Shown here: piece by piece, positions 50,440 to 60,639 of the stretch
How the letters are laid out: the number at the start of each line of letters is the position of its first letter
Position numbering within the stretch: position 1 is the first letter of the stretch
Assembly: GCA_951406725.2 (NCBI GenBank)
Contig: OX597827.1
Location: 7,874,001 to 7,938,000, forward strand
Origin: Octopus vulgaris
Lineage: Eukaryota
Direction of reading: 5' to 3'
DNA length: 64,000 nt
The notes under the pieces: generated by a model
Databases searched by the model: none
What the model saw: only the letters and a program-made list of their open reading frames with translations
What the model was told of the DNA's origin: nothing
Program-made: the position numbers and the translations under genes

Positions 50440-51414
50440 CAAGGAACCTTGTATGACTTTAAAAATTCATATATATAAAACAATGGATAGGTGTCACTTC
50501 ATTACAGTTGTTTCTAACGAATTTTTTAATTGATTAATGAGTATAATTTATCATAATAAAAACTGTTTTCTTCAGATGAATACATGAACTTCACAATAAA
50601 GGACATTTTAAAAAGATTTAACATCCTTGGCATTTGCATATTTAATGATTCTACAATCAACACTTATCAATTCACCTGAATCTTGATGTGTGTGTGTGTG
50701 TGAACAAGTCGTTTCTTAAATCGTTTGAGAAACCTATCCTTTGGCTTCTGTTTACATCTTTCTGACTTACTTTCCAAATTTCAAATAAAACATTTCTATG
50801 TATCTCATTCTGAAAATATTACCATCACTACAGCTGCCGCCAGAATAAATCTGATCTCTTTAAGCAGCTGTTCCTAAACATTTTTTTCCAAGAGACCTTG
50901 TATGACTTTAAAAATTCATAAGTTCATGTACTCTACCTAGTATCTATATTTTATGAGCAACTGACATTACGATAATTTTAACAATGACTTAAATTAAGAG
51001 TATATTCATATACATATGTATGTGTGGATTTTTGTATCTGTGTTTGTCACCCCACCCCCATCACTGCTTGACAACCAGTGTTGGTTTATTTACATCTCTG
51101 TAACTTAGCACCTGAGCACTGTACACAATAATTTCATTATTATTATGTATGCCATGGAAGTCCCCTGCATGTTGTCCGACATGCCCATTGGTGTTGCAGG
51201 CCACAAAGAGAAGGTCTCTGTCACTCGTGGACGAGGTAGTCTGCAAGAAGGTGTCAAAAATCAGTCTTTCTGGTCATCAGGTATCCCCAGCTGAGGGGCA
51301 TAGGCCAAGATGATGGTTGCTAACCCATGTTGCAGCACTAATCTAATCTAAAGTATTCTATAACAGACTCTGACTACCTTGATTACCTTATCAACCCATT
51401 TCTCTGCAAAAGTT

Positions 51415-51902
51415 CCGATGTCTGGCAGCTGACTTGACAGACACCCATAAAATTATCAACCATCTTACAAACAATAACTCTGAGCACCTTTTCAAACTCC
51501 ACCTGTCTGTCTAGCATCCGTGAACATATTTACAAAGTCAGAAAACAGCACAGCTCCCATGACTTCAGGAAACATTTTTTCACGCTGAGAGTTGCTGAAG
51601 CATGGAACAAACTGCCGGCATCAGTTGTTAGTTGTTGGAGCACTGCATCCTTCAAAACTTCCATGCTTTCTGACATTCGCCAACACTACACCTGATTTTC
51701 TCAAAACTTCCATGCTTTCTGGGGTTCGCTGGCACTGCACCTGATTTTCTCCCCTCCATACACACACAAGCATGTATCTGACTCATGTATTGTTTGCTTT
51801 CCAGACATTTGTACACTACTGCATATACTTTATATGCACTTTCTGACAAGTTGTGGTGCACCTGAGCACTGTACACAATAATTTCATTATTATTATTATT
51901 AT
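51415..51902 (+). mobile_element. CR1/L2-group LINE family E 3' fragment with internal 49-bp tandem duplication
   Basis: Homologous to 57991-58468; duplication 51652-51700 / 51701-51749. Confidence 0.9.
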
Positions 51903-52419
51903 TTGGTAAAAGAGACTGATAGAATAAGTACCACCAGACTTTAAAAAATAAGTATTTGGGCTGATTTCTTTTTTTCAACTAATTCCTTCAAAGAGTGCTC
52001 CAGCATGGTACAGTCCAAAGATTGAAACAAGGAAAACATATATAAGATCATGCAGAATCCCTGAATGTTTTCATGCAAGCCTGGAACCCATTTTGAGAAG
52101 CATTGACCTTAAAGTAGGCCTGAAGCCTACAGGTTCTTGAAGCTGGAACTTATCCAGATTTTCAAGGCATTTTTGATAAAAGTGAAACCAAACTTGTCCT
52201 TGAATGGAATATCAGTCTTTTATAGGGTTAACCCCGTTAGGTGCCACTGAGATTCATTTTTAGTCATGTATACTGGAGCAATATGAAATAAAGTGTCTTG
52301 TTCTTGGATTGGCCCTGGATTAAGCAAAATAAGTACATACTTAGGGTATCAAGGGAAGAGGGACACCACAGAAATGGTAAAAGGTTTATGGCACAAAAGA
52401 AATCACTTTAAACTTGCCT

Positions 52420-57209: not shown

Positions 57210-57990
57210 TATATATTAAAGTATAAATATTTTATCAAATAATTGAGATAAAATTAGTCAATTATTTGAATTGGAGATAACATAGAAATGAATAAGACCT
57301 ATTGAGTTTGTAACAAGATGACCTTTCTTGGAAATATAGATGAATTACCTACAGGGAATCTGTACATTTAAATTAGGAAAAGCTTATCTCCTTAAGATTA
57401 ATTCTCGTTACAAACTATTTTTTAAACATGTTATACTGAACTATGAATTTAAAGGGTAAGGGAGGTAATTGCTGAATACTTATCTCCCTTGGATCATAAG
57501 ACCCAAAATGCCAGCCTATAATATATTTGTATGGTTATCGATGGAGACAGGAAATGATAACTATCGTTATGTATTCAATCTCACTGCGTGATTAGGCCCA
57601 TATAAGCTCTTTACATTTTGTTTTGTCCACGTTAGGGTGAAGACTGAACCAACGATTTTCATTATTATTTAGCAATTCATCAATATTGATAAGAGACTAG
57701 GATTCACACAGCAGAGGTCAAGTATTCTAATTTGTAGTCATCATACAAATGAGTTGTGTTTACAATATCTAATATTCTTTTATATATTACTAGTTCCAGT
57801 AATATATAATTATATCCCAGATGGAGCTTTTAGTCAAACGAATCAACTCTAGTACTTATTTTTTTAAGATTGGTCTCTTTTGCTGAGCCACTAAGTTACA
57901 TAGGCGTAACCACCAATTGTCAAGAGATGTTGGAGGACAAAAACAGACAAAACACACAAACACACACAAACAGACAGATATAGATACAGA

Positions 57991-58468
57991 TATTCTGAAC
58001 GCCTTACTTCCCTGGGCATGGACACATTAAAACTCCGACGTCTGGCAGCTGACTTGGCAGACACCCATAAAATTATTAACCATCTTACAAACAATAACTC
58101 TGAGCACCTTTTCAAACTCCACCTGTTTAACACCCGTGGACATGTTTACAAGGTCAGAAAACAGCACAGCTCCTTCCATAACTTCAGGAAACATTTTTCC
58201 ACGCTGAGAGTTGCTGAAGCATGGAACAAACTGCTGGCATCAGTTGTTAGTTGTCAGAGCACTGCATCTTTCAAAACTTCCATGCTTCCTGAAATTCGCC
58301 AACAATACACCTGATTTTCTCCCCTCCATACACACACAAGCATGTATCTGGCTCATACACTGTTCACTTCCCAGACATTTGTACATTACTGCATGTACTT
58401 TATATGCACTTTCTGACAAGTTGTGGTGCACCTGAACACTGTATGCAATAATTTCATTATTATTATTA
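57991..58468 (+). mobile_element. CR1/L2-group LINE family E 3' fragment nested in a minus-strand SINE A
   Basis: ORF 58018-58314 with TRGH and WNKL motifs; SINE halves at about 57825-57985 and 58479-58585. Confidence 0.9.
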
Positions 58469-60235: not shown

Positions 60236-60639
60236 TAATAATAATAATGAAATTATTGTATACAGTGCTCAGGTGCACCACAACTTGTCAGAAAGTGCAT
60301 ATAAAGCATATGCAGTAATGTACAAATGTCTGGGAAGTGAACAGTGTATGAGTCGGATACATGCTTGTGTGTGTATGGAGGGGAGAAAATCAGGTGTAGT
60401 GTTGGCGAATCTCAGGAAGCATGGAAGTTTTGAAGGATGCAGTGCTCCGACAACTAACAACTGATGCCGGCAGTTTGTTCCATGCTTCAGCAACTCTTAG
60501 CGTGAAAAAATGTTTCCTAAAGTCATGGGAGCTGTGCTGTTTTCTGACTTTGTAAATATGTCCACAGGTGTTAGACGGGTGGAGTTTGAAAAGGTGCTCA
60601 GAGTTATTGTGGGTGTCTACCAAATCAGTTACTAGATGT
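60236..60639 (-). mobile_element. CR1/L2-group LINE family E 3' fragment (part of inverted duplication B')
   Basis: ORF 60390-60623(-) matches ORF 58018; shared downstream flank. Confidence 0.9.

What the first reader, a model, noticed from the sequence alone, without database searches (positions are those of the whole stretch)
51652..51749. Clustered A>G substitutions in a duplicated LINE segment: possible genomic fossil of ADAR A-to-I editing
Seen: a 49-bp tandem duplication in a CR1-type tail. Sibling copies read CTG-AGATTCGCCAACACTACAC (e.g. reverse complement of about 60393-60414). The second unit reads CTG-GGGTTCGCTGGCACTGCAC: A>G at 51722, 51724, 51731, 51732 and 51737 (5 of 7 adenosines in 19 nt) plus one C>T, on the element's sense strand, while the flanks are near consensus. 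Established: inosine is reverse-transcribed as G and coleoid cephalopods have very high ADAR activity. Inference: RT re-copied from an edited RNA and fixed the edits in DNA. Caveats: two sites have a 5' G, which ADAR disfavours, and a base-calling or assembly artefact is possible.
Basis: partly seen in the sequence, partly recalled or inferred. Interest (0 to 1): 0.72.

Follow-up and report, generated by a model that had tools for sequence, protein, structure and literature searches.

The report
RNA-editing scar in a LINE copy
A dead jumping-gene copy carries a tight one-strand burst of A-to-G changes, and five sister copies in the same genome carry far larger bursts in the pattern of the RNA-editing enzyme ADAR, likely because edited RNA was copied back into inherited DNA.

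Summary
Observation confirmed: the second 49-bp unit has five A>G in 16 nt plus one C>T. The variant is unique in the 2.8-Gb genome; the family motif has 4,445 exact matches. Two A>G probes found five more copies with 10-39 sense-strand A>G each; two mirror T>C probes found none. Outside the probes, 80 of 101 changes are A>G, with ADAR-type neighbours (5' U>A>C>G, p=2e-4). One of these copies appears with its edits in independent sequencing contigs. The C>T fits CpG decay after editing. The last ~50 nt are spared (1 of 75 A). The duplication is not private (16 loci), so 're-copying' is not needed. Weak points: this patch is unusually short, and its own allele was not confirmed in reads. Best reading: ADAR-edited LINE RNA retrotransposed into the germ line. 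This scan noted the same phenomenon before, in this genome and others. In print, the nearest cases I read are cultured-cell insertions and APOBEC fossils.

The parts
51414..51901 (+). 5'-truncated non-LTR retrotransposon copy: end of ORF2, 3' UTR and (ATT)n tail; CR1-like by a recalled C-terminal motif
   Evidence: Aligns to family majority positions 75-502. Sibling L113 has an open 609-aa frame with Pfam RVT_1, E=2e-35.
51652..51700 (+). 49-bp unit 1: last codons of ORF2 and its TGA stop (51693-51695); unedited; one G>C at 51674
51701..51749 (+). 49-bp unit 2, downstream of the stop; same breakpoints as at 15 other loci
51722..51737 (+). A>G cluster (51722, 51724, 51731, 51732, 51737) plus C>T at 51730, likely decay of a CpG created by editing
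   Evidence: Exact 25-mer found once in G000.
51145..51413 (-). 269-bp fragment of a different, older repeat (endonuclease-like reading on the minus strand; RTE-like by recall), joined directly to the LINE's 5' end
   Evidence: 39 other matches among 40 scored, 86-90% identity; translation. The junction is found only here with up to 2 mismatches.
51108..51144 (+). Second, 37-bp copy of the same LINE tail, sharing one T>C with the main copy's tail
   Evidence: That C was seen in 0 of 91 other copies.
51021..51109 (+). Left part of a SINE-like repeat interrupted by the ~790-bp composite block
   Evidence: Intact window copies run on into the right part after about 2 bases, e.g. 49999 to 49996.
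51902..51972 (+). Right part of the same SINE-like repeat

Best explanation
This is a 5'-truncated LINE copy with five A-to-G changes clustered on its sense strand, likely left by ADAR editing of the element's RNA and then likely fixed when the LINE reverse transcriptase copied that RNA into germ-line DNA. Steps: (1) inferred: LINE RNA, probably already carrying the 49-nt duplication, paired with an antisense or inverted copy; the 3' region alone has no unusual fold. (2) Inferred: ADAR turned several A into inosine in unit 2. (3) Established chemistry: reverse transcriptase reads inosine as G, so target-primed reverse transcription writes G into DNA. (4) Inferred: editing of CCAA to CCGG made a CpG that later decayed to give the C>T at 51730. 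(5) Shown: the same family holds five more single-copy insertions with long one-strand A>G runs, so the route was used repeatedly. The copy is a dead record, not a functional element.
For: Chance is excluded at the family background rate (P=3e-11 per site set). A>G probes gave 4 and 2 matches, the window included; mirror T>C probes gave 0 and 0; 6 vs 0 is p=0.03 and 5 vs 0 without the window is p=0.06. The five other copies have 39/127, 10/69, 15/70, 18/61 and 16/94 A changed to G. Outside the probe motifs 80 of 101 changes are A>G; 5' neighbours U 24/61, A 21/82, C 26/167, G 9/74 (p=1.7e-4); 3' neighbours G 18/58, A 24/87, C 25/123, U 13/116 (p=0.006). Upstream-G depletion is the ADAR signature, and Octopus has exceptionally high hyper-editing (PMC5625713, passages). 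The six copies lie on both assembly strands (2 plus, 4 minus), yet the change is always A>G on the element's sense strand. An 89-nt contig of run X6 (organism C, DNA by guess, depth 37.6) reproduces the edited state of L061. The window's sites recur: the site equal to 51722 is G in 4 of 5 other copies and the site equal to 51737 in 4 of 5; the site equal to 51739 is unchanged in all. CpG sites change 11 times faster in this family (226/1660 vs 174/14404). L126 carries the same duplication with its two units edited differently, as expected if editing acts on an already duplicated RNA.
Against: The patch is only 16 nt. The rest of this copy has just 2 more A>G, one at a polymorphic site, whereas the other five copies are edited over about 200-400 nt. 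No contig was shown to hold this allele in the 4 runs laid closely. Two of the five sites have a 5' G, the least favoured context (9/74). The region has no better fold than shuffles (z=0.19), and edited A are not more paired than unedited A (0.43 vs 0.49), so the double-strand partner is assumed, not shown. The copy's 5' part lacks two markers of the other duplicated copies (majority columns 125 and 165), and the insertion is a composite, so a single template is not certain. No RNA data were examined.
Confidence: 0.6

Rival explanations
1. Still ADAR, but the patch came from a second template. Either the RT jumped briefly onto, or re-copied from, an edited RNA during this insertion, or a short gene-conversion tract was copied later from a hyper-edited genomic copy.
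For: Very short patch in an otherwise unedited copy. The insertion is a composite of LINE, foreign fragment and a second tail sharing a private change. Template jumping is a known in vitro property of non-LTR RTs (PMC8857657, passages). L061 shares 4 of the 5 G. The 5' markers differ from other duplicated copies.
Against: No other copy in the assembly carries all five G. L061 lacks the fifth G and was selected for sharing at least 3. Identical duplication breakpoints at 15 other loci make a fresh duplication here unnecessary.
Confidence: 0.22
2. A DNA-level event unrelated to editing: a multi-base mutation or a short templated patch that happens to be rich in A>G.
For: The patch includes a C>T, two sites have 5' G, and the copy has other small local changes such as a 4-bp insertion near 51510.
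Against: No exact 9-16-nt donor holding two or more of the variant positions on either strand of window 41001-62000. Five of six changes are A>G, and the sixth is the expected CpG decay. The same sites are hit in independently edited copies.
Confidence: 0.1
3. Base-calling or consensus error in the assembly at this locus.
For: The allele was not shown in any of 4 runs. Another nearby base, 52211, reads G in X1-X3 where the window has A.
Against: An error process should give T>C clusters on the element's sense strand as often as A>G; none was found. L061's edits are in an independent data set. The contig data also miss known sequence: X3 and X5 show no cover of the duplication junction, which has 28 exact matches in the assembly.
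Confidence: 0.08

Closest known systems
ADAR-edited processed-pseudogene insertions made by human L1 in cultured cells (PMC11702581, preprint; passages read)
   Same: Edited RNA written into DNA by a LINE reverse transcriptase; clustered one-direction changes (3 of 235 pseudogene insertions).
   Different: There: somatic, induced, host mRNAs edited at inverted Alu pairs. Here: the LINE's own sequence, in a reference genome of an invertebrate, apparently inherited; the double-strand partner is not identified.
APOBEC DNA-editing fossils in LTR elements (PMC4866542, passages read; PMC2873906, passages read)
   Same: Strand-biased, clustered, single-type hypermutation fixed in genomic retroelement copies, tested with the complementary change as control.
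   Different: Those are G>A, made on cDNA, in vertebrate LTR elements; that screen found invertebrates at noise level and said other mismatch types were very rare. Here: A>G, likely made on RNA, in a non-LTR element.
ADAR hyper-editing of repeats in RNA, including Octopus (PMC5625713, passages read)
   Same: Clustered A>G in repeats, with G depleted upstream.
   Different: Seen there as RNA-versus-genome differences; here the G is in the genome.
A-to-G hypermutation recorded in avian retroviral DNA (recalled, and named in earlier scan notes; the review passages read did not show it)
   Same: Edited RNA fixed by reverse transcription.
   Different: Exogenous retroviruses in culture or infection, not inherited non-LTR copies.

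Membership tests
ADAR A-to-I hyper-editing fossil | Clustered A>G far above background | tested here: met
   5 of 7 A vs 0.43% background, P=3e-11; five more copies at 14-31%.
ADAR A-to-I hyper-editing fossil | Strand specificity: A>G on the RNA strand, no T>C clusters | tested here: met
   6 vs 0 in two probe pairs (p=0.03); 80 A>G vs 9 T>C outside the probes. Two narrow probe pairs only, not a full census.
ADAR A-to-I hyper-editing fossil | Neighbour preference with 5' G depleted | tested here: met
   Met for the five sister copies pooled: U 0.39, A 0.26, C 0.16, G 0.12. The window's own five sites are too few to test, and two have 5' G.
ADAR A-to-I hyper-editing fossil | Double-stranded RNA substrate | tested here: inconclusive
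   No fold within the element (z=0.19; pairing 0.43 vs 0.49). Inverted family copies 1.8 kb apart exist in the window, but the source RNA is unknown.
ADAR A-to-I hyper-editing fossil | G alleles present in raw genomic DNA | tested here: inconclusive
   Shown for L061 in X6 contigs; not shown for the window's allele.
ADAR A-to-I hyper-editing fossil | Same adenosines edited in present-day RNA | not tested
   No RNA run was laid; both read-laying runs went to DNA-type or unlabelled runs.
Non-LTR retrotransposon (LINE) | RT-encoding ORF2, 5'-truncated copies, simple-repeat 3' tail | tested here: met
   RVT_1 in L113; differing 5' ends and (ATT)n tails.
CR1 clade | RT phylogeny within CR1 | not tested
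   No reference LINE set at hand; the label rests on a recalled C-terminal motif.
APOBEC DNA-editing fossil | Sense-strand G>A clusters | tested here: not met
   4 G>A vs 98 A>G in the five copies.

The most novel reading that the evidence does not exclude
In this genome (probably an octopus), ADAR edits LINE RNA in germ-line cells before insertion often enough to leave a heritable record in a few tenths of a percent of copies. Only RNAs whose last ~50 nt escaped editing got inserted (1 of 75 A edited there, against 97 of 345 elsewhere). The fossils would then map the RNA element that the LINE protein needs, and date past ADAR activity and specificity.
Probability: 0.5. Interest if true: 0.75.

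Novelty: new variant of a known kind. Interest (0 to 1): 0.58.

Why it matters
RNA edits are normally not inherited. If edited LINE RNA is written into the germ line, the genome keeps a datable record of ADAR activity and shows that ADAR meets retrotransposon RNA in germ cells. That makes a long-discussed role, ADAR as a mutagen or restriction factor of LINEs, testable from genomes alone: count edited copies by age, clade and species. The unedited 3' end offers a natural footprint of what the LINE protein must recognise. This locus itself is a modest example; its sister copies L061, L063 and L125 are much better test cases.

Tried and rejected
Reads for the window's allele: of four runs laid on 51688-51772 at 95% (X1 about 80% read, X3 whole, X5 about 98%, X6 whole), none gave a listed piece with this allele. 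This is no evidence of absence: contigs drop rare variants, and X3 and X5 also lack the common duplication junction. A depth-220 piece in X1 from 51702 to at least 51729 can be inferred from the bins, but it may be copies with a single A>G, so it was not counted. The wider laying was swamped by sibling copies. No RNA holder was listed as on record. 'Widespread G-rich subfamily': rejected; the variant is found once, and L061's next-best match among 40 scored of 3,436 candidates is 90% identical, so no daughter copies were seen. Local template for the patch: none in window 41001-62000. Parent locus of the composite block: none among 40 scored of 3,415 candidates, and none by junction pattern. 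Hairpin inside the element: not supported. A>G excess in the 269-bp foreign fragment: 4 of 13 private changes against 29 siblings, too weak to count. Rows dropped before counts: duplicate loci of the same place, the two tandem arrays and the window's own loci; 35 or 40 polymorphic columns of 502. Background copies were not a random sample: 30 were chosen by an exact motif and the rest by BLAST rank. One search timed out and was replaced. PMC9115989 (passages) does not mention CR1 and was of no use for the clade. Supplements of the papers were not opened; those of PMC4866542 could hold A>G counts.

Full report
Observation. The window holds a 49-bp head-to-tail duplication at 51652-51749. Compared with the sibling on the minus strand at 60394-60412 and with other genomic copies, unit 2 has A>G at 51722, 51724, 51731, 51732 and 51737 and C>T at 51730; unit 1 has one G>C at 51674. 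In 91 background copies A>G runs at 48 of 11,256 A, so the cluster has P=3e-11, or 3e-6 over all copies and windows.

The element. The host is a 5'-truncated LINE copy at 51414-51901 with an (ATT)n tail. Sibling L113 keeps a 609-aa open frame with a reverse transcriptase domain. Unit 1 holds the last ORF2 codons and the stop; unit 2 lies after the stop. A 23-nt family motif has 4,445 exact matches in the 2.8-Gb genome. The CR1 label is recalled from a motif and was not tested. The animal is probably an octopus (my inference from genome size and repeats; earlier notes say the same).

The duplication is not private. Its exact junction has 28 matches at 11 loci, including two arrays of 12-13 units. 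Five more loci carry it with small differences, making 16 with the window. So it was most likely present in the template. This is not certain: the window copy shares the 3' marker of the duplicated group (column 394) but not two 5' markers (columns 125 and 165).

Genome-wide test. The exact G-rich variant occurs once. A probe asking for at least 3 of the 5 G found 4 places: the window, L061, L062 and L063. A second probe in another part of the element found L125 and L126. Mirror probes for T>C found nothing in either region; 6 against 0 gives p=0.03. The five other copies are separate insertions at separate places, with 39/127, 10/69, 15/70, 18/61 and 16/94 A changed to G. Leaving out the probe motifs, 80 of 101 changes are A>G. 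The 5' neighbour rates are U 24/61, A 21/82, C 26/167, G 9/74 (p=1.7e-4); the 3' rates are G 18/58, A 24/87, C 25/123, U 13/116 (p=0.006). Upstream-G depletion is the shared ADAR signature, and Octopus has an exceptionally high hyper-editing rate (PMC5625713, passages). L061 has no close daughter among 40 scored candidates. A rough hand estimate: a copy edited at 30% passes a 3-of-5 probe about 1 time in 6, so the family may hold some tens of such copies, a few tenths of a percent (inference).

Is it real DNA? An 89-nt contig of run X6 (organism C, DNA by guess, depth 37.6) aligned to 51704-51761 with 2 differences and continued upstream with further G. That upstream motif matched only L061 in the genome, and L061 differs from the window by exactly 2 letters over that span. 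So L061's edits exist in an independent data set. The window's own allele was not shown in any of the four runs laid closely; the gap is uninformative, but the allele stays unconfirmed.

Details that bear on this copy. The site equal to 51722, which has a disfavoured 5' G, is G in 4 of the 5 other copies, including both that were found by the other probe. The site equal to 51737 is G in 4 of 5, and the site equal to 51739 in none. L061 and L063 show CCGG where the window has CTGG, and CpG sites change 11 times faster than other C and G in this family, so the lone C>T fits decay after editing. L126 carries the duplication with more edits in unit 1 than in unit 2. Against the simple reading, the window's patch is only 16 nt, and the rest of the copy has 2 further A>G. 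The element's 3' part folds no better than shuffles, and edited positions are not more paired. The duplex partner must then be an inverted or antisense copy; the window has one such pair 1.8 kb apart (57990-58464 plus, 60240-60610 minus), which shows the opportunity, not the source.

A composite insertion. The LINE copy is the right end of a ~790-bp block that interrupts one SINE-like repeat. Left of it lie a 269-bp piece of another repeat and a second 37-bp copy of the LINE tail; both tails share a T>C seen in 0 of 91 other copies. The junction exists only here. This suggests a read-through RNA from a parent not in the assembly, or template jumping, which non-LTR RTs do in vitro (PMC8857657, passages). 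It keeps alive the rival that the patch came from a second, edited template.

The spared 3' end. In the five copies only 1 of 75 A in the last ~50 nt is changed, against 97 of 345 elsewhere (p=1e-8); leaving out the two bins that hold the probes it is 52 of 205 by addition. Most LINEs are of a 'stringent' type whose protein recognises its own 3' tail RNA (PMC4176376, title and start of abstract only). Edited tails may therefore fail to insert, or a bound protein may shield them; both are inference. A second low zone, majority positions 200-250 (3 of 51), is unexplained.

Comparison. It works like the ADAR-edited pseudogene insertions made by human L1 in culture (3 of 235; PMC11702581, passages) and parallels APOBEC fossils in LTR elements (PMC4866542, passages), but is A>G, non-LTR and apparently inherited. 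Seven paper searches (listings only, apart from the papers named) showed no report of inherited A>G-edited LINE copies in a cephalopod; the library lacks most subscription journals. This scan has noted the phenomenon before: 20 findings in at least 11 genomes held my search words, and the 8 notes shown of 279 for this genome all describe it. Those are unchecked notes and were used as leads only.

Verdict. Observation confirmed. An ADAR origin by some route is about 0.8 likely for this patch (0.6 direct, 0.22 through a second template). The phenomenon in this family is well supported. New variant of a known kind; interest 0.58.

Noticed in passing
L061 (G000:C9:38531559-38532039, minus): 481-bp family copy with 39 of 127 non-polymorphic A changed to G; its edited state is seen in X6 contigs. 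The best specimen found.
   Followed up: yes
L062, L063, L125, L126: Four more A>G hypermutated copies of about 260-350 bp. L126 has the 49-bp duplication with unequal editing of its units, a 7-bp deletion and a 13-bp deletion.
   Followed up: yes
window 51108-51901: Composite ~790-bp block (LINE tail, foreign 269-bp fragment, LINE 3' end) inside one SINE-like repeat; both tails share a private T>C; no parent found.
   Followed up: partly
L041 (C6:9968386-9968905) and L055 (C28:14092911-14093430): The 49-bp ORF2-end unit has grown into arrays of 12-13 units at two loci: a minisatellite born from a LINE.
   Followed up: partly
G000 C28:24013909-24015214, C14:15764721-15765617, C30:11897924-11898806: Other tandem arrays of parts of this LINE's 3' end, with periods near 337 and 123 bp.
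   Followed up: no
family majority positions 200-250 and 450-502: Two zones nearly free of A>G in the edited copies: 3 of 51 and 1 of 75 A.
   Followed up: partly
L031, L116: Mild A>G excess (5 of 137 and 4 of 138 A; P=3e-4 and 3e-3 before correction for 91 copies): possibly lightly edited copies.
   Followed up: no
window 57990-58464 (+) and 60240-60610 (-): Inverted pair of young family copies 1.8 kb apart, a candidate double-stranded RNA if transcribed through.
   Followed up: no
window 52211: X1, X2 and X3 contigs read G where the window has A: an allele or an assembly error.
   Followed up: no
L113: Family copy with an open 609-aa ORF2 part running off the locus; the family looks young.
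   Followed up: partly
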